Shown: positions 1 through 15,105 of the stretch, piece after piece
Numbering within the stretch: position 1 is the stretch's first letter
Layout: each line of letters starts with the position of its first letter
Assembly (NCBI GenBank): GCA_963719495.1
Contig: CAVRCI010000008.1
Location: forward strand, 1-64,000
From: an uncultured Verrucomicrobiae bacterium
GTDB taxonomy: Bacteria > Verrucomicrobiota > Verrucomicrobiia > Chthoniobacterales > JAATET01
Length of the DNA stretch: 64,000 nt
Direction of reading: 5' to 3'
Notes under the pieces: model-generated
What the model saw: only the letters and a program-made list of their open reading frames with translations
What the model was told of the DNA's origin: nothing
The model's database searches: none
Translations under genes and position numbers: made by a program

Positions 1-181
1 AAGCCTTGATTATCTGGTCTGAACTGGTTGTTCGCGAGGCATCTGCTTCGGATGTTGTCGTGCATTGCCTGTCGGCGCTTCGTTGACCGGACCGACCTAT
101 CGAGACACCCCGGGCACCTTCGTATCCGGAGTGTCTCCGCCACTTCCTTCGCATCTCGGAAGCGGGTCGATCTGGACTGCT

Positions 182-826: not shown

Positions 827-1203
827 TACTTGCTTGGCTTTCCCCCGTTTCCCATTGACCCAAACCGTAAAAGGGATTTTCTGGCCGGTTCTGATTTTGG
901 AAATAGTCGATCCAAGTCGGAAACGTGCATCTGGAGGACATACGGCATCGGAGATTCGTCTTCAAATAACAGCTCAATCCCGATCTCAGACGGATCCATA
1001 TAATGCGGTCCACGAGTGACGTAGACGGTATCGACGTAACGAATCTCGTCCACGACATGGCGTTGACAATCGGGAACGATCAATCGCATGGCACCAGCGT
1101 TGGTCGAGAGAAAAAAGTTGCCTTTAGCGTTGTGCGCCGCTTCCCAGAAATTCGTTCTAACGAGCTTCTGGCCATCATTTTCTAAGCATAGATGTGTATC
1201 CAT
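715..1203 (-). CDS. Hypothetical protein
   Basis: 162-aa ATG ORF, protein-like N-terminal 110 aa. Confidence 0.55.
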   Translation of the reverse strand: MDTHLCLENDGQKLVRTNFWEAAHNAKGNFFLSTNAGAMRLIVPDCQRHVVDEIRYVDTVYVTRGPHYMDPSEIGIELLFEDESPMPYVLQMHVSDLDRLFPKSEPARKSLLRFGSMGNGGKPSKYCQCEPILASQARSFQQLKRLRPRQQQPVPIRFQRKS

Positions 1204-1478
1204 GCTTCATAGATACTGAGTTGCTCGACAGCTTTTTGAAAATAATTGAAAAAAGTTTTCCGACTCTTCCAGAAACGCTCAGGCGGTGCTTGATCCTGGC
1301 AATCTCGGTTTCGATTTTCCACCACGACTGATAGTGTAAAATACAAAGTTGGCGTTCTCTCATGCGGACGCCTGCCAGATACAACCTGATTTGATCGCCC
1401 CCCCTCGTCTCAGCGCCGGAGCCGACATCTGAGAGGGCCGCGATCTCGCGAAAACGACAGCGTCCGTATCTTGTCAGA

Positions 1479-2807
1479 ATGATCCGAACTCCGCTCCGCT
1501 TAATCAATCTCGCCGAGATCTATCGAAATGACGCGATCTTATCGCTCCAACGCTGGTCTGACGCCATTCGAGCATGGGTAAAAGAGCACCCGAAGCCCCG
1601 CGATTCCGGCTACCTAGAGGATGTCGCCTCATATGCTCATCAGGAGACTGGACTACGGTGCATGGCCCTTGAGACGCTCGATCGATACGCCGCGCTGGAG
1701 CTGTGGACCGCCGCGATTGAAGACCTTTCGAATGTGGCTTTTCTCGCGAGCTACCCCCGCGAACTCGAGCACTCACTGCGCAGTCTCGGCGCTGTCGATC
1801 CGAGCCTACTGGGTGGATTGCAGTGGCTTTTAGCGGATAACATGAGCTATCCCGCGCGCAACCACTTTCTCCGCTGGAGAACGTGGTCGGCACCGATTTT
1901 TGCCGTCGATGCAGACGTTGTGTTATCTGCCGTAAATCAACCAGACCCGGAGCCGTCGCCGACGATCAAAGACCTATTTGCGGACGGCACCAAGTCCCAG
2001 CGCGCGGCGATGAAAGACCTCTCTTACCTCATCGCTGTAAAGCGCCTAGGACGGACGTTTGGAGGCATCACTCCTCGGACCACCGCCCTACTCGTCGGTC
2101 TGTCCGGCAGCGGTAAAAGCTGGGTTGCGGAGAATGTCGCGGCGATGGCGGGAATCAGGTCATTTGGCGCGACCGTTGGGTCGTGGTTGATTTACGGCGG
2201 TCGGGGCGAGACACCTACTGCCGAACGCATTCGTCGGCATCTACGCCAGCACGGCGCCAGCATAATTGTGATTGATGAGATCGATAAAGTGCGGATGGGC
2301 AAAGACGACGGAAACGCGGGATATTTTCGCTGCATCTGGGATGAAGTGATGAGCCTCCTGGACGGACGTGCAGACCGGTGGCCGGACTGGAGTGAGAAGG
2401 ACGTCGCGGCTCTTCGCGCGAGCCATTTTGTAACCGCGGGGGCCTTTCAAGATGTATACCGAAAGGAACTCGGCGCGGGTCCCGTTCTGCTAGCGGAGGA
2501 GATCGAGTCTCTGGAGCCAGTCACCTTCGAACGGATTTCCTCCGCAGAAATTCTCCCTGATGAATTGCTTAACAGACTGGGAAGTGTGATCGAAATCCGT
2601 CCGCCCGAAACTGATGAGGTCGCCGAACGGATGTTCGAGATCGAAACAGATGCGGGTTTTATCTGCGACAATCAGGAGCGCGTAGAAAACGCTCGGCGAA
2701 TTGCCTGCTCGCTGACCGGAATGCGTGGACTCGAGGACTACGCTTTACAGCTTGCCCAGAGGCGAATCAGAGAGGATCGCCGGATCGCCCGTGAGAAAGC
2801 TCAGTGA
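1479..2807 (+). CDS. Stand-alone AAA+ ATPase (ClpX/HslU-like ATPase domain) with unknown N-terminal domain
   Basis: Walker A GLSGSGKS, Walker B IIVIDEIDK, VTAGAF and LPDELLNRL motifs. Confidence 0.8.
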   Translation: MIRTPLRLINLAEIYRNDAILSLQRWSDAIRAWVKEHPKPRDSGYLEDVASYAHQETGLRCMALETLDRYAALELWTAAIEDLSNVAFLASYPRELEHSLRSLGAVDPSLLGGLQWLLADNMSYPARNHFLRWRTWSAPIFAVDADVVLSAVNQPDPEPSPTIKDLFADGTKSQRAAMKDLSYLIAVKRLGRTFGGITPRTTALLVGLSGSGKSWVAENVAAMAGIRSFGATVGSWLIYGGRGETPTAERIRRHLRQHGASIIVIDEIDKVRMGKDDGNAGYFRCIWDEVMSLLDGRADRWPDWSEKDVAALRASHFVTAGAFQDVYRKELGAGPVLLAEEIESLEPVTFERISSAEILPDELLNRLGSVIEIRPPETDEVAERMFEIETDAGFICDNQERVENARRIACSLTGMRGLEDYALQLAQRRIREDRRIAREKAQ

Positions 2808-3192
2808 TCGGAGGGGGGTAGCGTCATCTCCTTCAGGCAGAGCGACTTTGCTCTTCGCGAAGCTCCCGGCACCTGATAGCGCGCAGCGACAACCTCAGCA
2901 TTCTACCTTTTCGGATCTTGAACCCATGCTCGGCGAAACAACCGACATGTCGAAGGTGCCGCGGAAAATAGTCAGCGTGGTCAAGGAGTTGATCTCCGCG
3001 CAACGTTCCCACTTTGGCGATATGCAGGCGGGATTACTCTATTGAATCGGCAAAAACAAGGAGTAAGTCCTATCTAAAGCTATCAGATGCTAATTAACTC
3101 TATTTTTTGAAAAATGACCCCTTGCGCCGATTTAGCTTCCGCAGTTCATTTCATTATCGGTCGAATTAATCGGTCGACAGAACCAAAAACAA

Positions 3193-3489
3193 ATGAAGAC
3201 AATAGACGCAACCTCCAACTATTACGTTAAAATCACCTATTTTTATTACGACGGCACGTTCAATGCTCGTGCCAACGGACCACTCAAAGACCAAAATGGG
3301 CAGAAGATGCTATTCGAAAGCCGCGAAGATGCTAAGAAGTTCCTGCTCACTGACAACTATGAGTTAGAGTGGCTCCGTTGCGAAGAAACGAAGTCTGGAA
3401 TTTACATGACCTGCGGCGATTACTGCTTAAAGCACGGAGAATACTCGCGGCCATCCTACATAGTTCGGAAGGAACGAGCGCGCCGATAG
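3193..3489 (+). CDS. Hypothetical protein
   Basis: 98-aa ATG ORF after an AT-rich promoter-like region. Confidence 0.6.
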   Translation: MKTIDATSNYYVKITYFYYDGTFNARANGPLKDQNGQKMLFESREDAKKFLLTDNYELEWLRCEETKSGIYMTCGDYCLKHGEYSRPSYIVRKERARR

Positions 3490-3691
3490 GAGACGAATTT
3501 TGGAGGCTCCCCTGCTCATTTGGCAGGGGGGCAGTCCGGTGCGCATCACATACGCGACACTCAAGAGCACATCCTTTTCCGTCAAAGTAGATGAGCTTGA
3601 GTTAGACGTCTTCTAAAATATGTCCAAGTTTCCCCTTGCGCCCTCCTTTTCAGAGCTTTAGGCGCTGCGCCCCCCCCGGCGCTCAAATCGG

Positions 3692-3714
3692 GACCCAACT
3701 GATTAAGAGTCAGT
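3692..3714 (-). other. tRNA-Lys(CTT) anticodon-arm fragment, probable att site
   Basis: Reverse complement ACTGA-CTCTTAA-TCAGT-TGGGTC gives a 5-bp stem with a canonical CT-CTT-AA loop; rest of tRNA absent. Confidence 0.55.
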
Positions 3715-3717
3715 AAG

Positions 3718-5327
3718 GAATGGCGTTAAGATAAGGTAGATTTGGGATGAGTTAGGGGATTGATTGAACGGAGGCGTTTCGGAGAGGTCAAATTGGCTAC
3801 CGCAATACATAATGCGTTTACGTGGAGGGAATTAAGACCATAATTTGGAATGTCAAACAAGACTCCATTCTTTCGAGCATTTGGTCCCCTGCTTTTCGGT
3901 CGTGCGCCGAGGCGAGCTGCCGATCAGATTAGTCGGATCAAGGGTCTGGAGGATCTCTACAGTCTATTTGGGGATCCCATTCCCAAGGCGATACTCTCAC
4001 CGACGAAGAAAGGGGTTGGGAGTCGGGATCGTAGCCTGCCCGCGCAGGTAACATTCTGGGCGTTCGTCGCCCAAGTCATGAGTCCGGGGATGGGCTGTCG
4101 GGAGGTTGTCAATAAAGTGGCGGCGTGGTGGCGCTGGGCGCAGATTCATCCGGGCCGCTCAGTGAGCGCGAGTGCCTATTCCCAAGCTCGCTCGCGTTTG
4201 GATAAGGAAGTGCTGGGAGTCATCGCCAGACGGGTTGCTTGGAGCTTGGATCGCAACACTCTGAGCGCGGAAAGATGGCTCCGTGGGCGCCATGTCAAGA
4301 TCATCGATGGAACGAGCCTATCGATGCCCGATACGCCGGAGAACCAAGCCATCTGGCCGCAACCCAGTTCGCAGAAGCCGGGCTGCGGTTTTCCGCTGAT
4401 GAAGCTCACTGGCCTGTTCTCATTGAGCAGCGGAGCGCTCATCGACCATGCCACCAGCAACGAGCATGTGCATGAAAGTCAGCTTTTTCGCCAGATGTGG
4501 CCGCGGCTGAGTCGGGGCGATGTTTTACTCGGAGATCGCGGTTTTTGCTCCTACACGACGATGGCCTCGCTAAGCGGGCGCGGAATCGATGGCGTCTTCC
4601 GCCTTCACCAAGCTCGCAAGATCGACTTCCGGCAAGGTAGACGCCTGGGCCACGATGATCGGCTGATCCGATGGACCAAACCGGACAAAACGCCCGCAGG
4701 CTTCAGTGATGAAGAGTTTGCCGCGTTGCCCGCCACTCTGTCCCTACGAATGATCCGACTTCGCGTCTCCAATCCCGGCTTCCGGACCCGCAGCGTGGTC
4801 CTGGTCACCACTCTGCTCGATCCCGAACTCTATCCCGCTGACGACATCCGCGCACTCTACGGCGAGCGCTGGAACGTGGAACTGCATTTTCACCAAATCA
4901 AGACGCTCATGGCCTTGGATGTTCTGCGTTGCCGGACGCCGGAGATGATCGAGAAGGAACTCCTGGTTCATCTCATCGCCTACAATCTGGTCCGAGTGCT
5001 CATGCAGCGTGCCGCCCATTAGCATAAAGTGCCTTTGGATCGGGTCAGCTTCAAAGCCACTCTGGACACCTCCCGCCACTTCGCCGACGTCATTCACGCC
5101 GCCTCCAAAACGTCGCGAAAACAACAAGCCCTCATTGAAGAAATGCTCGCCCTTATCGCCGCCTCGCTCATTCCCGAGCGTCCTGGTCGATCCGAACCTC
5201 GCACCAAGAAACGACGACCGAAAAACTACCAACTCCTCACCAAACCCAGATCAAAAATGGGAAATCTTCCCCACCGAAACCGCAGAAAACCAAAAGCCTC
5301 CAAATCCTCCTTATCTTAACGCCATTC
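3718..5327 (+). mobile_element. IS4-family insertion sequence, 1610 bp
   Basis: Perfect 19-bp terminal IRs GAATGGCGTTAAGATAAGG (3718-3736; 5309-5327); 11-bp target duplication GAGTCAGTAAG (3707-3717) / GAGTTAGTAAG (5328-5338). Confidence 0.95.
3850..5319 (+). pseudogene. IS4 transposase with in-frame TAG at 5020-5022
   Basis: IIDGT, LGDRGF and Y-x2-RW-x2-E-x6-K motifs; same frame continues past TAG to the RPGRSEPR-KRRPKNY C-terminus. Confidence 0.9.
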
Positions 5328-5419
5328 GAGTTAGTAAGCGTATTTACGGAATGGGCCGCACAACAGGATCCGTCCCTGAGGCGGCTTAAATCTGTCTTGC
5401 TCGGAGGTATCTTGAATCC

Positions 5420-5764
5420 ATGAACCGACTATCTGTTTTCATCGAGAGCACGGCACGTTCTACGAAAATCACCTGTTGTCTTGTCGACGAGGATGAGATT
5501 GCATATGCAGAAGGGCTTCTCGAAAAGCTCCGCTTGGATTGCGAGATCGAGGAAGTTGCTGGCCCATTTTACGCGGTGAACGTCACAAATGCCTCCGGCT
5601 CAACCTACAAGGAGCTGCGCACACAGCCTGAAACACTGGCGATCATCGGAGTGGAGGAGATCGGTAAAAATGCCGGTGAGATCTTTGAGCAGACTATCGC
5701 AGGTGGCGAATACTCTCGCGGAGCCCTCACCATTTCCATCTATCCGGACAACGGGAGCCGATAG
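5420..5764 (+). CDS. Hypothetical protein
   Basis: 114-aa ATG ORF with GGAGGT upstream. Confidence 0.55.
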   Translation: MNRLSVFIESTARSTKITCCLVDEDEIAYAEGLLEKLRLDCEIEEVAGPFYAVNVTNASGSTYKELRTQPETLAIIGVEEIGKNAGEIFEQTIAGGEYSRGALTISIYPDNGSR

Positions 5765-5869
5765 GCGGTGGGCCGACTGGTCAACTCGCAGAATTGACGC
5801 CAGTTCAGGTGTAGTTGTGGGGCCGGAAGCGACTCGGGGCGGCCCATCGTCGGGCGTCAGAGTCGAGGA

Positions 5870-5998
5870 ATGACACCCGAATCATTATTCACGGCGGCGT
5901 TGGCGTTGGATGAAGGTTGGAAAGTGGAGCGGTGCGAGTTTGCGGGTGACCGCAAAAAACTACTCTTGGAACTCATCCCCACGTCTTTCGCGGGGTAG
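5870..5998 (+). pseudogene. ISL3-family transposase N-terminal remnant
   Basis: Translates MTPESLFTAALALDEGWKVERCEF, resembling ISL3 transposase N-termini, then stops. Confidence 0.55.
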
Positions 5999-6043
5999 TT
6001 AGCGACAACCTCTCAATGCACCATCAAATAACCGATTGAATCC

Positions 6044-6175
6044 ATGAAAGCCTACCCAACCAAAAACGGTATCTCCGAAGAGACCCGCGCCCAGCTCATC
6101 TCGCTAGTGAATCAGCAACTCGCGGATTTGATCGATCTCGGGCTCCAGACCAAGCAGGCGCATTGGAACGTGACT
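6044..6175 (+). pseudogene. dps: Truncated Dps (DNA starvation protein), N-terminal ~43 aa
   Basis: LNQQLAD-like segment then QTKQAHWNV Dps signature; similarity ends abruptly. Confidence 0.8.
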
Positions 6176-6180
6176 CGACA

Positions 6181-6840
6181 TTACTGCTCCGCGAACGACG
6201 AGCATAGTTCCGCGAAAGGTGCCGGATCAGAGTCGAGCGCTTCCCAGTTCTCGGCGATCCAGGCATCGTATTCCTCGCGGGACATTGTGCCTACCGCGCG
6301 GAAGTCGCCGCCAGCGTAGCTACTCTGAATGGCTATATCGACATGGTTACCTTCAACTGCGCGATATGTCGCATCGCCGAAACCGCAAGCTCCCTCGCGA
6401 ATGACCGTAGGAACCTCCCCGACGATATTGATTTCATGCTGTTCGAGATACTCATCAAACACCGCCTGCGCCGTTTCATCGATATCGATGTCGATCAGAA
6501 GCTGACCGAGTGCCTCACCTGCATTATCACATTCGCCGACTTCCTCACCGAGCGCCTTGAGAAGATCATAGTAGGCTTCTTCACAACTCGACGCATGTTG
6601 GCATGCGAGGTATAGAAAACCGTTATCTTCGGTTTGGAATAGAATTATGTGCTCCTTCCCAGCGAGACGAATCGTTGTCACGACCTGCACTCCCCCAAGT
6701 TTATGCGGGCTGCCTTTAGAACGCTCGTCTTCGACTTCAAATGAGAGAGCTTCAATGCCTCTGGCTAACTGCTTTTCTGTGAGAAGGTCTGAATTTGACC
6801 AAATTGCGGTGGTAGTTGATGCCTGCTTCGATGTTAACAT
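6181..6840 (-). CDS. Hypothetical acidic protein
   Basis: 219-aa ATG ORF, AT-rich upstream region. Confidence 0.65.
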   Translation of the reverse strand: MLTSKQASTTTAIWSNSDLLTEKQLARGIEALSFEVEDERSKGSPHKLGGVQVVTTIRLAGKEHIILFQTEDNGFLYLACQHASSCEEAYYDLLKALGEEVGECDNAGEALGQLLIDIDIDETAQAVFDEYLEQHEINIVGEVPTVIREGACGFGDATYRAVEGNHVDIAIQSSYAGGDFRAVGTMSREEYDAWIAENWEALDSDPAPFAELCSSFAEQ

Positions 6841-7093
6841 ATTGATTTCTTTGTTTAACAGCCCATCCCTCCGGTCTCACATCATTGTGAGATTGCAAAC
6901 GGGGGCTGTTATTGTAATTAGACTTACCTTTTCTCCGCTCCGGTGTCAAGACTAACGATAGTAAGATTTTCAATATTCCTTGCACTAGCCTGAGGTATAC
7001 CTTAAATGCCCCTTGAATTTCGACTATTGAAAGTAACCTATTCTTCGCGATCTCCCTTTTGACTAAGGCCCGACGAGGCGACGTTCTACAACT

Positions 7094-7482
7094 GGAAGAA
7101 GAGGTGCAATGGGATGGACGTGAGTGAGACGCGCCGACTTCGAGCCATGGAAGAGGAGGTTGGGCGACAAGCGGCTGGGGGCCGATCTGTGCTTGTAGAA
7201 CCAGAATCTCAAGGGGGTGAACGTAGAAAATTGGTGAGCCCGTCATCCCAACGGTGTGCCGTAAAGCTGAATCTGGCGGAAGGCTGGAGCAAATCAACGG
7301 CGGCGGCGTGCCGGACGTTGGGGCTGGCGCGCTTGAACTTTCATCGCGAGAATCGGGAAGCGGTGGAGAGTCGGCGGATACACAAGGAGGTCTGGCCCGG
7401 CGCGGTGCAGCAGACCTGCCTAGTGCATCTCGCGCGCAACGTAGCGGTCCAAGCGCATCACTCTCGGGACCTCTCCCGATAA
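7094..7482 (+). pseudogene. Fused IS3-family and IS256-family transposase remnants
   Basis: GMDVSETRRLRAMEEE (IS3 OrfA-like) followed by EVWPGAVQQTCLVHLARN (IS256 CxxH motif). Confidence 0.65.
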
Positions 7483-7744
7483 AGAATGCATCAGCTCCTA
7501 TAGCGGAGGCAACGTTTTCGGTCTGATGTTGCCAGTTGGCCGCTTCGAGGTTGTCGGATTCATGACGCGTCATATCTGAAACGCGGTGCGGAAAGGCGTT
7601 CTGAAGCCTGGTAAAAATTGTTTTTGGGAATCATGAAAGGCGTTATTCCCCTACTGCCTATAGTCAGCCTGTGCTCGCAGGGGACTTAAGTGGATCTGCA
7701 TCGATGCCTTCTCGGCTACGAGGTGTTCCGGAAGAGCTGAAAGG

Positions 7745-8476
7745 TTGCCCGGTATCTTCGTCTCAATGAGAGAGGATGATCCACTGAAGCCCATATATCG
7801 CCGTGTCCTGCGGAAATTCCATCCGGACATGACGACCGACCCGATGGAGCGGGCCGCCTTCGGTGACCTTACCCGGGAAATTATCGCCGCCTATCAAGAT
7901 GGAGATGGCGACACGTTGATCGAGATCGAGCGTCTGGGGACTGCGTTCCGGGCTCCCGAGCGGGAATCGCAACCCTCGAGTGGAGTTCCTCGGAGGCATC
8001 AGCCGGCAGCGGCCGTTCCCAGTGCGAGCATGAAGCCTTGGGTGACGAATTTGAAGCCATTCTGGTTTCCCTATGCTCTCGCGTTTGCGATTCCTCTTTG
8101 GAACGGGAATCAGAAGTTCAAGAACGCGTCCTGCATCCTTGGAGCCATTCCCTGGACGTGGCTCGGCGTCCGACTTTGGGGCGGGATTGACGGACTTGCT
8201 GTTTGGCTGAACGAACTGGGTTACGCCCATGAGTCGTTGGCGGGATTGATTGTCGTCCTACTGCGCGGGGCTCTTATTGTCGCGATGCTCCCGATCGTTG
8301 TGCCGCTTGGCTTGGTGGCGCTGCGAGTCGGTTGGGTGATCGGATCGGTGTGGGTCGCGCATTGGGTGCTGGCTGGGGTGTTGGGCTATTTCCATCCCTA
8401 TCTTGCGTGGATCGCGACGGCGGGCCTCGGCCTGAGTTTGGCCATTGCGCTATGGCACTCGCTCGATGAGTGGTGA
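7745..8476 (+). CDS. J-domain (DnaJ-like) protein with C-terminal transmembrane helices
   Basis: YRRVLRKFHPD motif followed by about 5 hydrophobic segments; start may be ATG ~7766. Confidence 0.7.
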   Translation: MPGIFVSMREDDPLKPIYRRVLRKFHPDMTTDPMERAAFGDLTREIIAAYQDGDGDTLIEIERLGTAFRAPERESQPSSGVPRRHQPAAAVPSASMKPWVTNLKPFWFPYALAFAIPLWNGNQKFKNASCILGAIPWTWLGVRLWGGIDGLAVWLNELGYAHESLAGLIVVLLRGALIVAMLPIVVPLGLVALRVGWVIGSVWVAHWVLAGVLGYFHPYLAWIATAGLGLSLAIALWHSLDEW

Positions 8477-9814
8477 CCCGTGCAGGGGTCCTTCCAAAGC
8501 CTCGCATTGGCTGCGCGTCTCGCTGGTTTCCACTCTGAGATGGTGGGGTGCTTGCACCCGTTGACGTAAGCTCGGCTTGGCGGTGAGTTCGAAATACTCG
8601 GAGGGTCTGTCTTTTAGCCAATGCGGAGTCATCTCCCAGAATGCAGCGAGTTCTTCATCTTCGACGATGGGCGCGACATACCATTCACGGATCACGTTCG
8701 CGGAATTGCCCATTTCGGCAGCAGTGAGATTTTCGTTTTTGTGAAGGTGGTAGTGAAACGTCCCGAAACCGTGGCGGAGGCAGTTGTAGGGCAAAGAAAT
8801 GCCCGCCAACGCGGCGAGTTTCGACATCCGATCGCACCACGTGAAGGCCGAATCGGTGCCTGCGACAGGTCCCTTGGTCTGCCTTCGTCCATCCAGCCAC
8901 TGGATGAGATTGTCTGGGAGTGTGACTGGGCGTGAACGCCGTGACTTCGATTTCGAGCCGCGGATTTCGATCTTTTTACTGCCTACGCGATCCCAAGTGA
9001 GTTCGATCAACTCCCCGGTTCGAATCCCTGCAAACGTTTTGATCGCGAGTGGAGCAATGAGATCCGGCATTTCCGTGAGAGCGGTGCGAAAGAGAAGTGC
9101 CGACTGCGGCACTCGAAGAAATTCAACCTCACCCAGGCTTTTGGAACTGCGCTCAAGGGTGCGGCAGGGATTTTTGTCGATCCAATCCCGATCGACGGCG
9201 TAGTTGAACGCGATGTGGAGGTTGCGGGCGTAGGCGACTCTCCGGTTGTGAGAGATGTCGTCCTGCTCGGAGAGCCACTCCTCGATCATTGAGCGGGTCA
9301 TCAGATTGATCGGCTTCTTTTTGAAATCCTCGGAGAAGAGTCGAAAGATCGACTCCATATTCGCAATGTGGGATTTGCTCCGGCCAGCTTGACGTTTGTT
9401 TTTGATGAGCGCGTCGCCGACCTCTGGAAAGGTCTTCACTCCACCGGGTGGGTTTTTGTGGCGGAGACCAAACTCGACAATTTCGCTCAACGAGAACCCG
9501 TGCTCTCGACATTTTTTGACCGCAGCGGCGGCTTCTGAGATTTCCGACGGAGTGAGGGCGAACGCTGCGCCTCCCGCATCGCGTTTCAGGTCGATCACTC
9601 CGACGGCAGGTTTTTCGGCCTTCCTGCCGTTGCCTTGAATAAAGGTGAGGGCCTCCTTGCGCGTTCGGAAGTATGCTGAAAGCGCTTTGCCGCCGGTAAA
9701 CTTTTTACCTAGCCTGACGCGGATGTATTCCGTGCCGGACTTCTCCCATTTAGTGACCTTCACGCCCGTCGGTAGATTGGCGATGATTTCACGTGGGGAT
9801 GATTCGCTCGACAT
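8450..9814 (-). CDS. Tyrosine recombinase / integrase (intact)
   Basis: GIRTGE (catalytic R), SKS (K), NCLRH, GNS and REWY (Y); N-terminal arm-binding-like domain; ATG at 9814 chosen. Confidence 0.92.
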   Translation of the reverse strand: MSSESSPREIIANLPTGVKVTKWEKSGTEYIRVRLGKKFTGGKALSAYFRTRKEALTFIQGNGRKAEKPAVGVIDLKRDAGGAAFALTPSEISEAAAAVKKCREHGFSLSEIVEFGLRHKNPPGGVKTFPEVGDALIKNKRQAGRSKSHIANMESIFRLFSEDFKKKPINLMTRSMIEEWLSEQDDISHNRRVAYARNLHIAFNYAVDRDWIDKNPCRTLERSSKSLGEVEFLRVPQSALLFRTALTEMPDLIAPLAIKTFAGIRTGELIELTWDRVGSKKIEIRGSKSKSRRSRPVTLPDNLIQWLDGRRQTKGPVAGTDSAFTWCDRMSKLAALAGISLPYNCLRHGFGTFHYHLHKNENLTAAEMGNSANVIREWYVAPIVEDEELAAFWEMTPHWLKDRPSEYFELTAKPSLRQRVQAPHHLRVETSETRSQCEALEGPLHGSPLIERVP

Positions 9815-9820
9815 ACCTCG

Positions 9821-9845
9821 AAAATTGGATACAAATTGGATACAA
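9821..9845. promoter_or_regulatory. Tandem direct repeat AAATTGGATAC x2, putative integrase arm-type sites
   Basis: Lies between the integrase start and the tRNA half. Confidence 0.5.
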
Positions 9846-9899
9846 CCGAATTCCGGTTCGGTCAAGAGAGTGAAATTCGAGTGAATTTACTCTGTAAAT

Positions 9900-9941
9900 G
9901 CCGGCGTGGCGAAATGGCAGACGCAACGGACTTAAAATCCG
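9900..9941 (+). pseudogene. tRNA-Leu(TAA) 5' half (att junction)
   Basis: GCCGGCG-TGGCGAAATGGCAGACGC-A-ACGGA-CTTAAAA-TCCG, then non-tRNA sequence. Confidence 0.92.
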
Positions 9942-10069
9942 ACAGATTGATCCTCTGGAGAGTGAATATCGAGAGGGAAACCCTGATTTCCGGGAACATT
10001 GTTGTCCAAATATGTCCAAATTCGCAGTGCTGGATTTGGTTTTATTTTTCAGTTATACAGTTTTCTTTC

Positions 10070-10152
10070 CGGCGCGTGGCGAAATGGCAGACGCAGCAGA
10101 CTTAAAATCTGCTGGCCGCAAGGTCATGCGGGTTCGAGTCCCGCCGCGCCGA
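10070..10152 (+). tRNA. tRNA-Leu(TAA), complete, 83 nt, CCA not encoded
   Basis: Cloverleaf: CGGCGCG/CGCGCCG acceptor, GCAGA-CTTAAAA-TCTGC, variable arm TGGCC-GCAA-GGTCA, GCGGG-TTCGAGT-CCCGC, discriminator A. Confidence 0.95.
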
Positions 10153-10383
10153 TTTGCACCTCTCACTAAAACGGGAATGCTGAGGGTCCACAACCTTCTC
10201 TCCGGCGGAGATTCTTGAACAGCCCGCGGGGGTGAAGCTCGCATCTCGTGCAGGAGTTGTGCCACGCGCACCGCTCCTTTTTTTATCTCCGGTGACGGTA
10301 ACCAACTCTTCACCGATCCAGACAGCCCAATGTCGCGACGCGTATTTTGAGATGAGTATTTTCTTCTGAACTTTTGATGGTCC

Positions 10384-10818
10384 ATGCACCTCAGCCAAAG
10401 TGATCGTTTGGCGGCAGGGGCCGAAAGGCAGCTGCCGGGATCTGTTTTCCATCACAGGGGCAGCTTTCCGCCGCACCTTCGGCCTCAGCTCGCTGGCAGC
10501 GAATGGGGTGCCATAGTCGTGCCGCTTTGTTGGGCGTTCGAGACAACGATAATTCGGAGACTCCAAACGATGTCACTCGATCCTGGCGGCCGGGCGCTGA
10601 AGGATTTTTTTGAGTGGTATGGCCGATTTGAACTCGACGAGCTGAAATCCAAAATTTCACCCATGGCGAAGGGAGAGGGCCGCCGAGGCTTGTGCTTCAT
10701 GGAGCGCACAGCAATCGTGCCGGCCGATGTCTGGGTGGAGAGGAAGCTGTGCCTTATGGGTGATTATGAGGTCCTCGACAGGCTCTGCGCCTCCGAAGAA
10801 ATGACTTGGATTCTGTAA
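10384..10818 (+). CDS. Hypothetical protein
   Basis: ORF followed by an intrinsic terminator; start uncertain. Confidence 0.4.
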   Translation: MHLSQSDRLAAGAERQLPGSVFHHRGSFPPHLRPQLAGSEWGAIVVPLCWAFETTIIRRLQTMSLDPGGRALKDFFEWYGRFELDELKSKISPMAKGEGRRGLCFMERTAIVPADVWVERKLCLMGDYEVLDRLCASEEMTWIL

Positions 10819-10840
10819 TCTGGCCGGGCATCACGCAGTG

Positions 10841-10872
10841 AAGGCGCGGGGATTTCTCCCCGCGCCTTTTTT
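10841..10872 (+). terminator. Intrinsic terminator
   Basis: AAGGCGCGGGGA-TTTC-TCCCCGCGCCTT followed by a T tract. Confidence 0.85.
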
Positions 10873-10904
10873 GTGCCAGCGATACTCTTGGTGTGAATGC
10901 CCCG

Positions 10905-12137
10905 TCAGCGCCTGAACTTCAGGTCTTCGTAATTGCGGTGGACGATGGGGAAAACGGCAGTGGCTCCCTGACGTTGTTCTTGGGAGAGTTTCTCGGCGGC
11001 CGCCAGAATACGCTCTGCCGTGGCACGCAGGCGCTGTTGGGCAATGGCATGGCTGATCCCGGCTTGGTCAAAAAAGAAGCTCCAATTCTTGGTTGCCAGT
11101 CGGCGTGGATCTCTTTCGCCGCCGAGTTTCATCGCCATATCACTGGCGAGGTCCGGATAGGCTTGCGTGCTGACCAAGTCGTAAAGCGGAGCCAGCCGAA
11201 TCGCGTTTTTCTCCCGCAGGAGGGAGAAGTTTTTGCCGTGGGCATCGTTGTTTCCGACCAGGACATTGAAGACCACTGCATCGAAGAGACGCAGTAGGTC
11301 CGGGCCGGGTATGGTTGATATGGAACGGACCAACTCGAAGCACTTTTTGAGGTTTGGGCCGCCCTCCTGCTGATACTTCAATTCGGGAGGGACGCCGAGC
11401 GCCTGACAGAAATCTTCCTGGTGAATACGTTCGAGCCGGCCATCTGAGAGCAGTAGCCGGTCATATCGCTTTACCTGAAGAAAACGAATCCTCCCCGCTT
11501 CTCCAATTTCGACCTCGGCCACCTCCAACCCCGCCTCGGCGGCCAGCTTCATGCAAAAATACTCGTTCTCAACCAAACCGGAGAAGTGTGGGTTCTGGGG
11601 CTTGAGAATGTGGCTGCTTGGGGAGCCGTCGAGCGGCAGGAAGACGCGCCCGTCGCTGATTTTGACGGCAAGCTTGCCTTGCGCACCGGCCAGGGAGAGC
11701 CGGATTCCTTTTTCGCCTGCGAGCAATGGCCGTCGGGGCAGGAGTCCCAGCCTCTCGGCCAATTCATCGGCATTGATTTCCTGATAGCTGGGCTGGGTCG
11801 TGACGGGAAGCTCTCCAGGCGGCAGAAGGCTGACGGCTCCGGCGCACTCGGCTCCGAGTCGGGCAAGGAGCGAAAAGTCATTCTCACTGCTGATCCCGAA
11901 TGCCTTGGCGATCAGCCGACGACTTTCTTCTTCCGGCAATACCCCGGCAAAGAATGGGCGGGTTTCATTCCGACTGAAGGGCTCGGGACGCAGCGGTAGA
12001 GAGGTCGAAAGGGGCATGGCATGCGGTGAATCCAACCACGCTTGGGAGTATTGGAAACGGGTATTACCGGATGCGTCCTGCTCAAGTTCGCCGACCAACT
12101 GCTGGCCGAGGAAGACGTTTAAGATTTGCCGTGCCAT
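10905..12137 (-). CDS. hipA: HipA family toxin (Ser/Thr kinase) with N-terminal Couple_hipA domain
   Basis: SLAGAQGK, HILKP, ENEYFCM, HQEDFCQALG, GNNDAHGKNFS, LAPLYD. Confidence 0.96.
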   Translation of the reverse strand: MARQILNVFLGQQLVGELEQDASGNTRFQYSQAWLDSPHAMPLSTSLPLRPEPFSRNETRPFFAGVLPEEESRRLIAKAFGISSENDFSLLARLGAECAGAVSLLPPGELPVTTQPSYQEINADELAERLGLLPRRPLLAGEKGIRLSLAGAQGKLAVKISDGRVFLPLDGSPSSHILKPQNPHFSGLVENEYFCMKLAAEAGLEVAEVEIGEAGRIRFLQVKRYDRLLLSDGRLERIHQEDFCQALGVPPELKYQQEGGPNLKKCFELVRSISTIPGPDLLRLFDAVVFNVLVGNNDAHGKNFSLLREKNAIRLAPLYDLVSTQAYPDLASDMAMKLGGERDPRRLATKNWSFFFDQAGISHAIAQQRLRATAERILAAAEKLSQEQRQGATAVFPIVHRNYEDLKFRR

Positions 12138-12139
12138 AA

Positions 12140-12349
12140 CTATCGCTGATCCCGAGGCTGAAGCACCGGATCGATGCCGAGGTTCTCCAAGACCTTGAAA
12201 GTCTTGCCCAAGACGCAGGTCTCCTTGCCATTTTCAAGATCACTGATGAACCGGATGCCGGTTCCCGAAACCAACGCCAGATCGGCTTGTTTCATTCTCA
12301 GGCTCTTCCGGCGGTCTCTGACAATTTTTCCAAGTTCTTCAATGGTCAT
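12140..12349 (-). CDS. hipB: HipB-like HTH antitoxin
   Basis: 69-aa Xre HTH (QADLALVSGTGIRFISDLENGK) 2 nt upstream of hipA. Confidence 0.93.
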   Translation of the reverse strand: MTIEELGKIVRDRRKSLRMKQADLALVSGTGIRFISDLENGKETCVLGKTFKVLENLGIDPVLQPRDQR

Positions 12350-12355
12350 TTGATT

Positions 12356-12467
12356 TTCCCGATCGGGAATATAACGGATTGCGTTGGTGTTTCAATGTGA
12401 TTATGCCCGATCGGGAATAATCTTAGCATTTAGAGTGATTGCAGAAGTATATATTCCCGATCGGGAA
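12356..12467. promoter_or_regulatory. Three palindromic hipBA operators TTCCCGATCGGGAA
   Basis: Copies at 12356-12369, 12404-12417 (1 mismatch) and 12454-12467, directly upstream of hipB. Confidence 0.85.
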
Positions 12468-13480
12468 TGTCTGGGGTTCATACTTCTCCTCATCGTAGTG
12501 AAGTCTTCCGGGCTTTCCTTTAGCAGGTGATTGATCGGCGAGGGCCTCGACGGTAGAAGGATAATGCCTCCAGAAGAGTTTGCAGTCGGAAGGCCGTGCG
12601 GCGTTCAAGTAATTGGCTTTGATGACAGCTTCTGAGTTTCCTGCCTCCGTAGCGGTGAGGGCCGTGCCTTTGTGGAGGGCGACGTCATATGTTGAAAAAC
12701 AATGGCGCATCGCGTTCATGGGCCACTGCCCCGAACCGAAACCGGCCCCAACGGCAATCTTTCGCAAAGCCAGTTGCCATGCAGCTTCGCGATCGTTGCG
12801 ATTCGGGAAAGCTCTGAAAGCTAGTTCCCCAGGATCTATTGCGCCTCTGATTGATTCCAGCCAAGCTCCGAGCACAGGTTCGATGGAGACAGCATCCTTT
12901 CCTGCCGGTTTCGCGAGCATTTTCGTCACGTCTTCAGGCGTGATCTCAACAACCCGCTTGTCCAAAACCCCGGGACCATCCGTTCAACAACCTTGCCTGT
13001 TTGCGGGTTCAATTTCTTTTCCGTGTATCCGCTCCAATACAACGTGAGCTTGGACTCGGTATCCCTCACGTGCCGGTCCCCGAGTTGCTCGGCCTGTTGT
13101 TCTGCCTTCAGAGCCGCGATGGCTTCGGCCATGGTCTTTCCGTCCTTAGGGGCGTCCAGCTTCGCCACCCAGGCTTCCACAGCTTTTAGGATGCCTGGCC
13201 TGCCCGCCTGTATTGCGAGGGCAAGCCGTAATTCAGAGAGAGTCTCGACCGAGAGCCCATGCTTAACAGCTTCGGGTGCCTTTTTTTTCTTGAGGTTCTC
13301 CAGTCCCTCGACGAACCACGCTTCTGCCTTTGCGCGGGTCGGAAAGGCCTTTTTCCTGGAACCTTCGCCGAGAAAAACAGGAGGTAGGCGGGCGCGATAA
13401 AAGGTCGTGCCTTTGTAGCGCTCCTCGCTGATTCCAGCTCCGGCTGGTAAAGATCTCTTTCGGGGCGTTTCGCGGCAGTT
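12423..13480 (-). pseudogene. Integrase pseudogene (no start, frameshift ~12965, internal deletion)
   Basis: N-terminal frame LPAGAGISEERYKGTTFYRARL...AFPTRAKA parallels the intact integrase; C-terminal NAMRHCF, GNSEAVIKANY; catalytic-Arg segment missing. Confidence 0.85.
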
Positions 13481-13552
13481 TCCTCAGATCAAATTCAATG
13501 GGACGCAATATTACCAAAATCTTCCCAAGTTTCAGTTTTTCTCTGTAACTTG

Positions 13553-13609
13553 ACGGACTCGAGATCCGTTTCTGGCGACGGAGTGCGGGTTCGAGTCCCG
13601 CCGCCGGTA
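13553..13609 (+). pseudogene. tRNA-Leu 3' half (att junction)
   Basis: ACGGA-CTCGAGA-TCCGT, variable arm, T-arm, and CGCCGGT-A complementary to 9900-9906. Confidence 0.92.
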
Positions 13610-13620: not shown

Positions 13621-15105
13621 CTATTCCGGGACGAGTCGGACGATCTGACCGGGTTGGCCGCGGTCGCCGCTGGCATCGTTGATCACCACGTAGGGGTGGC
13701 CGTCTGTTCCGATCGTGACGTCGCGGACGCGCCCCAAGTCTTTCAACAACACCTCTTGGGAAACGACCCGATCGCCCTCGAGGACCACGCGGCGGAGGTC
13801 GCGGGTGGCGAGTCCGCAGACGAGGACGTTGTCTTTCCAGGTCGGAAACACGTCGCTGTCGAGGAAGGCCATCCCGCAGACGCCGAGCGATGGGAGCCAG
13901 TAGGTGGCGGGGTCCTGAATGTCGGGCGCGGTGGTCTGGCTCGTGATGGGGGTGCCGTTGTAATTCATGCCGTAGGTGGCGACGGGCCAGCCGAAATTTT
14001 TGCCGACCCGAATGAGATTCAGTTCGTCGCCGCCGCGGGGGCCGTGCTCGGTTTCCCAGAGTTGGTCGGTGCCGGGTCGTCCGGCGAGGCCCTGCGGGTT
14101 GCGGTGGCCGTAGCTCCAGATCGAGGGATAGTCTCCCTCGGGAAATGGATTGTCGGCGGGGATGCGACCGTCGTCGTGGAGGCGGTGGATCTTGCCGTTC
14201 GGTTTCGAGAGATCCTGGGCCATGTCCTGCTGGCCGCGGTCGCCGATGCCGAAGAAGACGTAGCCGTCGCGGAAGACGAATCGGGAGCCGTAGTGGTGGG
14301 CGGCCCCGGCGAAATCGTCGGGCTTGGCGTGGAAGATGTCTTCCTGGTCAACCCATTGGCCGTCGCGGATGCGACCGCGAACGACGGCGGTCATGCTGGT
14401 GACCGGGTCGGTGTCGGTGGGTTCGGAGTAGCTGAGGTAGATCCAGCCGTTTTGCTCGTAGTCGGGATGGACGCCGACGTCGAGGAGACCGCCCTGACCG
14501 TCGTGGCGGACCGTCGGTGTGCCCTGGATCGGTGGTCCGAGTGCGCCATCCTCGAAGCGGCGAAGCTGGCCGCTCCGCTCGGTGGCGAGAAACTGGCCGC
14601 CGGGAAGGAATTCGATTGCCCAGATCTCGGAGTCGGAACTCGCGACCGACTCGGCGCGGAACGAGACGCCGCCGACCTCGAAGACCGTCTCGTCCGACCA
14701 ATCGTCGGGTTCGACGGTGGGAGGTTGGCGGTCGTGGATCTCGCGTTCTTCGAGGATGTAGATGGTGAGGGCGCGGATCTCGTCGGCGGAGAGGGTGTCG
14801 CCGTAGGCCGGCATGCCGACGTCGGTGGCTCCGTGGGTCGTGACGCGGGTGATCGATTCGGCGTCGCCGCCGTGTTGCCAGGGGCCTTCGAGCAGGGATC
14901 CACCGAGGCCGCCTTCGAGTTGGGCACCGTGGCAGCTGGCGCAGTGTTCCCGGTAGACGTCGACGACCGTACCCGTCCCGATCTTCGATTGGGCGAGGAG
15001 GCTGGGCGTGAGAAGGAAGGTGAGGGCCAGCGAAATCCAGATGCGTATCACGGTGGGGAGGTTGCCACCGTCGAGGGTCGAGGCAAAGCGGTTTTCGCGG
15101 GCCAA
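13621..15105 (-). CDS. PQQ-dependent sugar dehydrogenase (GSDH/YliI type) with N-terminal cytochrome c
   Basis: Signal peptide, CASCH, GQGGLLDV, GHRNPQG, EHGPRGGDELN; true start probably GTG ~15051. Confidence 0.92.
   Translation of the reverse strand: MARENRFASTLDGGNLPTVIRIWISLALTFLLTPSLLAQSKIGTGTVVDVYREHCASCHGAQLEGGLGGSLLEGPWQHGGDAESITRVTTHGATDVGMPAYGDTLSADEIRALTIYILEEREIHDRQPPTVEPDDWSDETVFEVGGVSFRAESVASSDSEIWAIEFLPGGQFLATERSGQLRRFEDGALGPPIQGTPTVRHDGQGGLLDVGVHPDYEQNGWIYLSYSEPTDTDPVTSMTAVVRGRIRDGQWVDQEDIFHAKPDDFAGAAHHYGSRFVFRDGYVFFGIGDRGQQDMAQDLSKPNGKIHRLHDDGRIPADNPFPEGDYPSIWSYGHRNPQGLAGRPGTDQLWETEHGPRGGDELNLIRVGKNFGWPVATYGMNYNGTPITSQTTAPDIQDPATYWLPSLGVCGMAFLDSDVFPTWKDNVLVCGLATRDLRRVVLEGDRVVSQEVLLKDLGRVRDVTIGTDGHPYVVINDASGDRGQPGQIVRLVPE

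What the first reader, a model, noticed from the sequence alone, without database searches (positions are those of the whole stretch)
9900..13609. tRNA-Leu(TAA) broken by an element that carries its own re-coded replacement tRNA: possible tRNA-hostage addiction
Seen: joining 9900-9941 to 13569-13609 gives a perfect 83-nt tRNA-Leu(TAA), yet neither junction restores it. 128 nt inside the insert lies another complete 83-nt tRNA-Leu(TAA). It has the same D- and T-arms but compensatorily different acceptor (CGGCGCG vs GCCGGCG), anticodon (GCAGA/TCTGC vs ACGGA/TCCGT) and variable stems. The right-hand loop has drifted (CTCGAGA vs CTTAAAA) and the cognate integrase is dead. Known: tRNA-targeting elements normally rebuild the target; UUA needs this isoacceptor; tyrosine recombinases need identical overlap regions. 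Inference: the element complements rather than restores the gene, its copy is immune to the integrase because the core stem is altered, and it is now locked in along with hipBA. Alternative: the element once restored the gene with a 5' half (CTCTGTAA precedes both junctions, 9890 and 13541) that decayed after the spare was gained.
Basis: partly seen in the sequence, partly recalled or inferred. Interest (0 to 1): 0.85.

Follow-up and report, generated by a model that had tools for sequence, protein, structure and literature searches.

The report
Split leucine tRNA with island-borne spare
Two mobile islands sit one behind the other inside the host's only UUA-reading leucine tRNA gene; the inner, decayed island never repairs the gene and instead carries a complete foreign copy that the cell now seems to depend on, a trick first described in 2024 for mycobacterial phages.

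Summary
Window 9900-9941 plus 13569-13609 make a tRNA-Leu(UAA) that is 81 of 83 identical to the gene of a same-genus relative. Neither junction is a tRNA. 10070-10152 is a complete, divergent tRNA-Leu(UAA), the only one in the 98.6%-complete assembly.

There are two elements in tandem.
- E1 (1-9941, live integrase) supplies a promoter-side 5' half. The same element, 99.97% identical, sits in front of an intact tRNA in another species. So 9900-9941 is E1's half. The host's own half ends contig C9.
- E2 (9942-13552) carries the spare tRNA, hipBA and an integrase that lacks about 160 residues.

E2's layout is a broken 5' half, then 50-200 nt, then a complete divergent tRNA, with only a 15-17 bp core and a 3' remnant beside the integrase at the far end. 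It recurs in four other Chthoniobacterales genomes; three have both ends assembled, with live integrases. So "complements, does not restore" is supported. "Hostage" is only partly supported, because precise excision of a live element would rebuild the host gene. Here the dead integrase and an altered attR loop have locked E2 in.

The principle is published as tRNA-dependent lysogeny (2024). Earlier notes of this scan report the same design on other DNA.

The parts
1..9941 (.). E1: right-hand part of a restoring island that supplies the 5' half. It runs off the contig start.
   Evidence: 99.97% identical over 9942 nt to G005:C4, where an intact tRNA-Leu(UAA) follows it. GC is 50-58% against 63-68% in the core. 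Cargo includes an AAA ATPase and an IS4-type transposase.
8450..9814 (-). E1 integrase (int1), a divergent tyrosine recombinase transcribed away from the tRNA half
   Evidence: Pfam Phage_int_SAM_5 28.4 bits (cutoff 22.3). PF00589 scores only 20.9 (cutoff 27.1). The box I Arg-Glu, a Lys, the box II Arg-His and a C-terminal Tyr align with a strong PF00589 member.
9825..9845 (+). Paired arm-type repeat TTGGATACAA x2 of E1
   Evidence: The same 21-mer lies 173 nt behind the broken 5' half on G005:C3, which is E1's left arm. It occurs once in this assembly.
9887..9899 (+). Conserved motif TTTACTCTGTAAAT in front of E1's tRNA half
   Evidence: Identical in G005 in front of the intact gene. Related motifs lie in front of the cores of relatives. 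Its role was not tested.
9900..9941 (+). 5' half of native-type tRNA-Leu(UAA), carried by E1. 9925-9941 is the shared core (anticodon stem-loop).
9942..13552 (.). E2: decayed non-restoring island that carries a spare tRNA
   Evidence: Bounded by the core copies at 9925-9941 and 13553-13569. Its pieces match family-f9 genomes: tRNA 92%, hipBA 76-81% nt, integrase 54-63% aa.
10002..10021 (+). Arm-type repeat TTGTCCAAAT / ATGTCCAAAT of E2's left arm
   Evidence: A similar left arm follows a broken 5' half in G007:C140. TGTCCAAA-type repeats lie beside the integrases of G317 and G099.
10070..10152 (+). Complete tRNA-Leu(UAA), variant allele (acceptor CGGCGCG, anticodon stem GCAGA/TCTGC). It is the only tRNA-Leu(UAA) in the assembly.
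   Evidence: ARAGORN. Rfam 58.9 bits. 92% identical to the tRNA of G155, G134 and G218.
10905..12137 (-). hipA (toxin kinase of a HipBA pair), open frame of 410 aa
   Evidence: Pfam HipA_C 1e-57 and Couple_hipA 5e-29.
12140..12349 (-). hipB-like HTH antitoxin, 69 aa
   Evidence: Pfam HTH_3 25.2 bits, cutoff 23.
12423..13468 (-). Integrase pseudogene of E2
   Evidence: tblastn with the G099 integrase: aa 3-168 in one frame (12974-13462), then aa 150-173 and 332-454 in another frame (12525-12971). About aa 174-331 are missing, and that stretch holds the box I Arg and the conserved Lys.
13541..13548 (+). CTCTGTAA motif, 4 nt before the core
   Evidence: G099's live element has CCTCTGTAA, 4 nt, then the stem-loop.
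13553..13609 (+). attR: anticodon stem-loop copy with altered loop (CTCGAGA), followed by the displaced host 3' half
   Evidence: No tRNA is called here.
13621..15105 (-). Host flank: glucose/sorbosone dehydrogenase with a cytochrome c domain
   Evidence: Pfam GSDH 4e-114. GC rises to 64-67%.

Best explanation
The locus is a tandem array of two integrative islands in the anticodon loop of the host's single tRNA-Leu(UAA) gene.

E2 (9942-13552) belongs to a group of Chthoniobacterales islands with these features:
- A tyrosine integrase recombines a 15-17 bp copy of the anticodon stem-loop with the host gene.
- The attachment site holds no further tRNA sequence, so neither junction is a tRNA.
- The island carries a complete, divergent tRNA-Leu(UAA) 50-200 nt inside its left end, in the same orientation as the host gene, and this copy takes over UUA decoding.

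E2 has since decayed. Its integrase lost about 160 residues and its frame, the loop at its right junction changed at 3 of 7 positions, and only hipBA and the tRNA look intact. It can no longer leave.

E1 (1-9941 and beyond) is a different, apparently live island. It carries a 5' half and so rebuilds the gene at its integrase end. It most likely entered later, at the core left at E2's left junction. Its 5' half therefore now abuts E2, and the host's own 5' half lies at the end of contig C9.

Shown here: the sequences, the recurrence of the layout, the dead integrase, and the single gene copy in the assembly. Inferred: expression of the spare tRNA, the order of the two insertions, and the crossover inside the loop.
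For: Single copy and need:
- One tRNA-Leu(taa) among 53 tRNA genes in 16 contigs. BLAST finds no other 3' half.
- UUA occurs 1255 times, in 727 of 1842 long ORFs.

The split gene is the native type:
- The joined halves are 81 of 83 identical to G001's gene. G001, G002 and G005 carry that allele, and G004 a close one.

E1:
- 99.97% identical over 9942 nt to G005:C4, followed there by an intact gene.
- Its left arm, with the same 21-mer repeat, follows a broken 5' half on G005:C3.
- G023:C17 shows a 5' half, about 11 kb, then an integrase and an intact gene.

C9 as the left border:
- C9 ends with core DNA plus a 5' half.
- In G001 the homologues of the C9 flank and the C8 flank lie about 390 nt apart.

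E2's design recurs. In G317:C62 (about 115 kb), G155:C11 (about 50 kb) and G099:C68 (about 29 kb):
- a native-type 5' half is followed 143-195 nt later by a complete divergent tRNA;
- at the far end an open integrase gene sits next to the core plus a 3' remnant;
- the remnant's acceptor strand pairs with that 5' half (GCCGACG/CGTCGGC in G099).
G084:C125 shows a decayed version of the left end.

E2's pseudogene is 54-63% identical to the G099 integrase.

In family f9, 11 of the 80 genomes that matched the pattern (102 searched) carry a variant allele, and none of the 11 shows an intact native-type gene.
Against: - The left border is not assembled. C9 stops in the anticodon loop and C8 starts inside E1, so an intact native-type gene in the gap cannot be excluded for this genome.
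- No RNA data exist, so expression of the 10070 tRNA is not shown.
- E2 as a whole was not found elsewhere. In 401 genomes of the order only its pieces matched.
- In G134 and G218 the same variant tRNA lies behind a shared upstream gene (77% over 1263 nt), with no half or remnant found. So that allele can also look chromosomal. Whether those are old replacements or the allele's original home is open.
- Eight of the 11 variant-carrying f9 genomes show no native half by the exact pattern.
- The pattern is exact and misses diverged genes.
Confidence: 0.8

Rival explanations
1. One reading: E2 arrived as a restoring island with its own 5' half. That half was deleted in this genome after the spare tRNA was gained.
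For: CTCTGTAA precedes both the E1 half (9890) and E2's core (13541). Related islands do supply a 5' half.
Against: G099's live element has the same arrangement, CCTCTGTAA, 4 nt, then the stem-loop. G317 and G155 also lack any 5' half beside open integrase genes. If a 5' half was ever lost, this happened in an ancestor of the group and not here. E1's integrase and the E2-type integrases share only about 26-32% identity.
Confidence: 0.08
2. Reverse order of events: E1 integrated first and rebuilt the gene, and E2 then inserted into that rebuilt gene.
For: Either order gives the same final structure (inference).
Against: E1 differs from its copy in another species at 2 bases and one gap in 9942, so it arrived recently. 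E2 has lost a third of its integrase and shows an altered loop, so it looks older.
Confidence: 0.2
3. The 10070 allele is the host's ancestral gene, and the two native-type halves are debris of a second or imported copy.
For: In G134 and G218 the same allele sits in a shared chromosomal context.
Against: The four same-genus genomes with a tRNA-Leu(UAA) carry the native type. The 10070 copy lies in low-GC DNA between the two halves, beside hipBA and an integrase wreck whose nearest matches are all in another family.
Confidence: 0.03
4. The host is not dependent on E2, because an intact native-type gene lies in the unassembled stretch between C9 and C8.
For: C9 ends in the middle of the anticodon loop, and E1's left end is missing from the assembly.
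Against: In G005 the same element's left junction is a broken 5' half followed by E1's arm. G023's island of the same design also leaves a broken half at its left end. No extra 3' half is in any contig.
Confidence: 0.1

Closest known systems
tRNA-dependent lysogeny of actinobacteriophages (Guerrero-Bustamante and Hatfull, mBio 2024, PMC10865867; I read the abstract and sections 5 and 11)
   Same: A tyrosine integrase targets a single-copy host tRNA gene. attP shares only a short core with it, so no junction rebuilds the gene. [quoted passage not shown]
   Different: In the paper the elements are temperate phages of Actinobacteria and the core is about 10 bp at tRNA-Lys. Here they are Verrucomicrobiota islands. 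The one annotated (G099, 23 of 25 ORFs scanned) shows no phage structural Pfam domains and has defence-like cargo. The core is the 15-17 bp anticodon stem-loop of tRNA-Leu(UAA). The spare lies just inside the junction that keeps the host promoter and 5' half. In this window the element is dead and the spare is fixed. The paper shows the requirement by genetics; nothing was tested experimentally here.
Islander-type genomic islands in tRNA genes, including the minority with a displaced 5' fragment and tandem arrays (Hudson, Lau and Williams, NAR 2015, PMC4383910; I saw the abstract and Table 1 passages)
   Same: E1 fits this type. It has an integrase next to the regenerated gene, a displaced fragment in the same orientation at the other end, and sits in a tandem array. 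Table 1 lists 159 islands with a 5' fragment against 3760 with a 3' fragment, and 125 tandems.
   Different: [quoted passage not shown] A search built on that rule would misplace its ends.
Substitution of host tRNA genes by phage-related sequences in Sinorhizobium meliloti (Int J Mol Sci 2024, PMC11476347; I saw one discussion passage only)
   Same: A host tRNA gene is functionally replaced by an imported gene that resembles those of unrelated taxa.
   Different: Those are phage-related elements in Alphaproteobacteria. I did not read how their junctions look.
HipBA toxin-antitoxin modules
   Same: 10905-12349 encodes a full-length HipA (both Pfam domains) and a small HTH protein directly upstream.
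   Different: No link between HipA and tRNA-Leu is known to me. Its role in keeping E2 in place is conjecture.

Membership tests
Non-restoring tRNA integration with an element-borne cognate tRNA (tRNA-dependent lysogeny type) | Integration by a tyrosine integrase into a tRNA gene | tested here: met
   The anticodon stem-loop is repeated at both ends of E2 and of three relatives. An integrase gene or wreck lies beside attR. This rests on sequence only; no recombination assay was done.
Non-restoring tRNA integration with an element-borne cognate tRNA (tRNA-dependent lysogeny type) | Short common core, so that no functional tRNA forms at attL or attR | tested here: met
   ARAGORN and Rfam call nothing at either junction. 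No tRNA is called beside the integrases of G099, G317 and G155. Cores are 15-17 bp.
Non-restoring tRNA integration with an element-borne cognate tRNA (tRNA-dependent lysogeny type) | The element encodes a tRNA with the same anticodon | tested here: met
   10070-10152 is tRNA-Leu(taa). The same holds in G317, G155, G099 and G084.
Non-restoring tRNA integration with an element-borne cognate tRNA (tRNA-dependent lysogeny type) | The host has no other gene for that isoacceptor | tested here: inconclusive
   Only one such gene in 16 contigs at 98.6% completeness. The gap between C9 and C8 is not assembled.
Non-restoring tRNA integration with an element-borne cognate tRNA (tRNA-dependent lysogeny type) | The element is a temperate phage | tested here: not met
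   E2 holds only the tRNA, small ORFs, hipBA and an integrase wreck. G099's 29-kb relative shows RadC, DUF499, HATPase_c_3, RloB with AAA_21, and AAA_25, with no phage structural domain among the 23 ORFs scanned. PHROGs was not searched.
Non-restoring tRNA integration with an element-borne cognate tRNA (tRNA-dependent lysogeny type) | The element tRNA is required for survival of cells that carry the element | not testable with these tools
   This needs genetics. Only UUA usage is shown.
Restoring tRNA island with a displaced 5' fragment (E1) | The island sequence regenerates the gene, and a fragment in the same orientation marks the other end | tested here: met
   In G005 the same element precedes an intact gene, and its left arm follows a broken 5' half. 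In this window the regenerated gene is interrupted by E2.
Tyrosine recombinase (PF00589) | Pfam gathering score and the catalytic Arg, Lys, His-x-x-Arg and Tyr residues | tested here: inconclusive
   int1 scores 20.9, G317 21.0 and G099 26.0 bits, all below the 27.1 cutoff. G155 scores 31.3 and G023 81.8, above it. The box I Arg-Glu, a Lys and the box II Arg-His are invariant in the alignment, and a Tyr follows in all five sequences. The first His of box II is Asn in int1 and in the E2-type proteins.
HipBA | HipA N-terminal and C-terminal kinase domains plus an adjacent HTH partner | tested here: met

The most novel reading that the evidence does not exclude
In Chthoniobacterales, islands that break the single tRNA-Leu(UAA) gene and bring a divergent complete copy drive turnover of this essential gene.
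- After an island decays, the foreign allele stays as the cell's only copy. This would explain why variant alleles are scattered among genera and never seen beside an intact native gene.
- The altered anticodon stem of the spare would keep it from being a target of these integrases.
- The clustered three-base change in E2's attR loop would block the one recombination that could delete E2 while rebuilding the native gene, namely E1's half joining the 3' remnant.
Together this amounts to competition between two island types for one tRNA gene, with lock-in of the loser's tRNA.
Probability: 0.3. Interest if true: 0.6.

Novelty: new variant of a known kind. Interest (0 to 1): 0.42.

Why it matters
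The finding shows that the 'break the tRNA and bring your own' strategy is not confined to temperate phages of Actinobacteria, where it was proven. It occurs in non-phage islands of another phylum. Its end state can be permanent replacement of an essential single-copy tRNA gene by a foreign allele.

Three practical consequences follow:
- Island finders that assume the target gene is regenerated will misplace such islands.
- tRNA alleles may be poor vertical markers in these groups.
- The spare tRNA with its short core could serve as a compact, self-selecting integration cassette, as the 2024 paper proposes for mycobacteria.

The window itself is a decayed example, so its individual weight is modest.

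Tried and rejected
- One search is void. The pattern had one N too many and matched nothing in 401 genomes, the window's own included.
- (genome-contig scan with the three-integrase alignment) returned only three loci from 92 candidate stretches, at 100%, 57% and 36% identity. It added nothing beyond record titles naming Chthoniobacterales, Terrimicrobiaceae and Spartobacteria.
- (metagenome scans for the C9 flank plus half junction and for the half plus E2 junction) gave 0 hits each.
- One search listed no RNA holder.
- laid contigs of two metagenome runs. One holds E1 nearly identically and a contig with the C9 flank plus half. No joints were seen and nothing decisive about the gap emerged.
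- One search found 0 promoter-like sites (0.4 expected) and 1 terminator-like site (0.8 expected), which is uninformative.
- tblastx of both flanks against the short loci of relatives gave nothing. Searches replaced it.
- E2 as a unit was not found in other genomes.
- I examined the far ends of ten related islands that target other tRNAs. Four were resolved, and all four regenerate the gene in the ordinary way. Six were not resolved because the contig ended or no tRNA lay in the stretch fetched. I therefore rejected the idea that the whole integrase group replaces rather than restores.
- Williams 2002 (NAR 30:866) is not held. What I say about it is recalled.
- Searches were format errors, which I corrected or dropped.
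- One search found no earlier notes on this genome.


Full report
OBSERVATION. Window 9900-9941 reads as the 5' half of a class II tRNA, up to TCCG of the anticodon stem. Window 13553-13609 reads as an anticodon stem-loop (ACGGA-CTCGAGA-TCCGT) followed by a variable arm, a T arm and CGCCGGT-A. ARAGORN finds one tRNA-Leu(taa) in the window, at 10070-10152. Rfam scores it 58.9 bits against a gathering score of 29 and reports nothing else between 9700 and 13800. When the two halves are joined by slicing in a script, they are called as an 83-nt tRNA-Leu(taa). Neither junction alone is called.

CONTEXT IN THE GENOME. The window is the first 64 kb of contig C8.
- GC is 50-58% up to about 13600 and 63-68% after it. 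The foreign DNA therefore runs from the contig start to the 3' end of the tRNA remnant, which is far more than the 3.7 kb flagged.
- Across the 16 contigs ARAGORN finds 53 tRNA genes and a single tRNA-Leu(taa), the copy at 10070.
- BLAST with both halves finds one more piece. The first 37 nt of contig C9 (reverse strand) are identical to 9902-9938, preceded by GC-rich core DNA. C9 ends in the anticodon loop.
- In same-genus genome G001 the homologue of the C9 flank and the homologue of the C8 flank (window 15134 onward) lie about 390 nt apart on one contig. So C9 and C8 flank the same locus, and C9 holds the host's promoter and own 5' half.
- UUA is rare at 1.3% of leucine codons, but it occurs 1255 times, in 727 of 1842 ORFs of 300 aa or more. 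That UUA needs a UAA-anticodon tRNA is established knowledge.

WHICH ALLELE IS NATIVE. In a search of 41 genomes (the window's own and 40 relatives), 39 matched the 10070 tRNA. ARAGORN on the loci shows that same-genus G001, G002 and G005 carry GCCGGCG...ACGGA-CTTAAAA-TCCGT...CGCCGGTA. The joined halves are 81 of 83 identical to G001's gene. G004 has a close variant, and no tRNA-Leu(UAA) match was seen in G003. The 10070 copy (CGGCGCG acceptor, GCAGA/TCTGC stem) matches only 69-70 of 87-89 aligned columns with these. It is 92% identical to the tRNA of three genomes of another family, G155, G134 and G218. The split gene is therefore the host type, and the complete gene is imported.

E1 IS A SEPARATE ISLAND THAT RESTORES THE GENE.
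- Window 1-9941 is 99.97% identical (2 mismatches and 1 gap in 9942 nt) to a stretch of G005:C4.
- There the same integrase start, the same TTGGATACAA pair and the same TTTACTCTGTAAAT motif are followed by an intact tRNA-Leu(UAA).
- On G005:C3 a broken 5' half (...AAAATCC, then unrelated sequence) is followed 173 nt later by the identical 21-mer TTGGATACAAATTGGATACAA. This is E1's left arm. The 21-mer occurs only once in the present assembly, so E1's left end is not assembled here.
- G023:C17 shows the same design on one contig: a 5' half, about 11 kb, then an integrase (PF00589, 81.8 bits) and an intact gene.

E1 thus supplies the 5' half and rebuilds the gene at its integrase end. This is the minority arrangement in the Islander survey, with 159 islands against 3760 (PMC4383910, Table 1 passage). 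The half at 9900-9941 is E1's own.

E2. Between the two core copies lie the following parts:
- an arm with TTGTCCAAAT/ATGTCCAAAT;
- the complete tRNA;
- two unassigned small ORFs;
- hipA (both Pfam domains) and an HTH partner;
- an integrase wreck.

With the G099 integrase as query, aa 3-168 align in one frame (54% identity). Aa 150-173 and 332-454 align in another frame (63% identity). About aa 174-331 are missing. In the alignment that stretch holds the invariant box I Arg-Glu and the conserved Lys. E2 as a unit was not found in 401 genomes of the order. Its pieces were: hipBA at 81, 78 and 76% nt identity, and the tRNA.

THE DESIGN RECURS. Three genomes of family f9 show, on one contig each, the same three features:
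- a native-type 5' half broken at the end of the anticodon stem-loop;
- a complete divergent tRNA-Leu(UAA) 143-195 nt further on, in the same orientation;
- 29-115 kb away, an open integrase gene reading away from a copy of the stem-loop that continues into a 3' remnant.

The elements are G317:C62 (about 115 kb), G155:C11 (about 50 kb) and G099:C68 (about 29 kb). In each, the remnant's acceptor strand pairs with the broken half. G099 has the distinct pair GCCGACG/CGTCGGC. The identical blocks at the two ends are 15-17 nt. No tRNA is called beside these integrases. G084:C125, from a third family, keeps a 32-nt 5' fragment 53 nt in front of a complete CGGCTCG-type gene.

G099's right end reads CCTCTGTAA, 4 nt, then the stem-loop, as E2's does. 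The missing 5' half is therefore a property of the group and not a local deletion. G099's island carries RadC, DUF499, an HATPase, RloB with AAA_21, and AAA_25. No phage structural domain appears in the 23 of 25 ORFs scanned.

THE WIDER INTEGRASE GROUP RESTORES. A profile of the three integrases found 26 matches in 19 of 102 family-f9 genomes.
- For 22 of the 26, the 400 nt in front of the integrase hold paired repeats, a TAAA-type motif, and only an anticodon stem-loop plus 3' part of a tRNA. I read the isotypes by eye as Leu-TAA, Tyr, Leu-TAG, Leu-CAA, Ser-GGA, CAT and Arg-ACG.
- One of the 26 was too short to judge, and three showed no such fragment.
- I fetched the element side of ten islands that target other tRNAs. 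Four showed a same-anticodon tRNA 12-39 kb away, directly behind host-like coding DNA, with no broken half in the 420 nt upstream (by eye). That is ordinary regeneration. Six were unresolved.

Among those examined, the spare-tRNA design is a speciality of the Leu(UAA) branch.

ALLELES IN FAMILY f9. An exact pattern from the D loop to the anticodon loop matched 80 of 102 genomes.
- Eleven genomes carry an allele whose anticodon stem departs from the native type: G270, G341, G317, G099, G374, G197, G350, G183, G134, G218 and G155.
- Eight of these show only that allele.
- In the other three (G317, G155, G099) the additional native-type match is the broken half.
- The 11 genomes lie in 5 genera, four of which also hold species with the native type.

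Against a simple reading, in G134 and G218 the variant gene follows a shared upstream gene (77% identity over 1263 nt), and no half or remnant was found. These may be old, cleaned-up replacements, or they may be the allele's source.

HOW IT MOST LIKELY WORKS.
- Shown: the host gene is cut within the anticodon stem-loop, neither junction is a tRNA, and the island brings a complete same-anticodon gene.
- Inferred from what is known of anticodon-loop integrases (recalled, not tested here): the 7-nt loop is the overlap, and the stem arms are core binding sites.
- Inferred: the spare is expressed. It could use a promoter of its own, since 50-65 nt upstream travel with the tRNA between relatives. 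It could also be read from the promoter of the broken half, since all five instances are co-oriented and 53-195 nt apart.
- In a live element, precise excision would rejoin the two host halves, so the cell is not held hostage.

In this window that exit is closed. The integrase is dead, and the attR loop differs at three positions, all transitions. The two stems are unchanged, and the 41-nt 3' part differs from G001's at only two positions. By my own arithmetic, three of five changes falling in 7 of 58 positions has a chance of about 0.01. An intact loop at 13553 would also have let E1's integrase join E1's half to the 3' remnant, deleting E2 and rebuilding the native gene. Whether the loop change was selected for that reason is conjecture.

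Order of events: E2 first and then E1 at E2's left junction is favoured, because E1 is nearly identical to its copy in another species and E2 is decayed. The reverse order gives the same map.

COMPARISON WITH THE LITERATURE.
- The principle is published as tRNA-dependent lysogeny (PMC10865867; I read the abstract and sections 5 and 11). There phage attP shares about 10 bp with attB in the single tRNA-Lys gene, no junction rebuilds the gene, and the phage tRNA is required for lysogens to survive. The authors expect it outside Actinobacteria and cite prophage Lj965.
- A Sinorhizobium study describes host tRNA genes substituted by genes brought by phage-related sequences (PMC11476347, one passage).
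- Of the 23 papers holding the term 'tRNA-dependent lysogeny', the 20 listed by title and abstract start include none on non-phage islands or Verrucomicrobiota. The 25 listed of 122 include none either. I did not read them beyond the listing.
- Earlier notes of this scan report the same design on other DNA, including one in Verrucomicrobiota. These are unchecked notes and do not count as support.

TAXON. Record titles returned with the three integrase loci name Chthoniobacterales, Terrimicrobiaceae and Spartobacteria, all Verrucomicrobiota.

CAVEATS.
- The left border is unassembled.
- There are no RNA data.
- The surveys use exact patterns and samples of the groups.
- Isotypes and the absence of halves were read by eye.
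- Genomes G016 and G172 are flagged unpublished and enter only the tallies.

Noticed in passing
window 1-2809 and G000:C3:188198-195557: The part of E1 at the contig start, and its continuation in G005, are 94% identical to a stretch of contig C3 that begins about 1 kb after tRNA-Leu(TAG). This second, related island probably caused the contig break.
   Followed up: partly
G000:C11:193191-193278: ARAGORN calls an 88-nt 'tRNA-Ile(tat)' with a long unpaired extra region. A homologue of int1 lies about 3.6 kb away at C11:196879-197985. It may be another hybrid or damaged tRNA at an island border.
   Followed up: partly
window 3850-5022: An IS4-family DDE transposase lies inside E1. Three near-identical 1.9-kb copies of another repeat on contig C2 match G005:C3 at 99%.
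   Followed up: no
G005:C3 (L031, about 5000-5280 on the reverse strand): The broken 5' half in front of E1's left arm in G005 is itself preceded by a TTCTGAAAAT motif and by DNA 71% identical to the start of int1. G005 therefore also seems to hold a tandem of two 5'-half-supplying islands.
   Followed up: partly
G007:C140 (L033 about 5000-5140): A 5' half broken after AAAATCC is followed by an arm like E2's (ATTTCCGGGAACATAATTGTCCAAATCTGTCCAAAT), with no tRNA in the 2.6 kb up to the contig end. No complete tRNA-Leu(UAA) was matched anywhere in that 97%-complete, 610-contig genome.
   Followed up: partly
G003 (same genus): The search with the 10070 tRNA gave only a weak 75% match in this 97%-complete, 4-contig genome. 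Its tRNA-Leu(UAA) is either very divergent or missing.
   Followed up: no
G317:C111:630-720: This genome holds a second complete variant-type tRNA-Leu(UAA) on a 2-kb contig.
   Followed up: no
window 10016-10049: A hairpin CCAAATTCGCAGTGCTGGATTTGG followed by TTTTATTTTT overlaps E2's arm repeat, just upstream of the spare tRNA. One such site is about what shuffles give, so its meaning is open.
   Followed up: no
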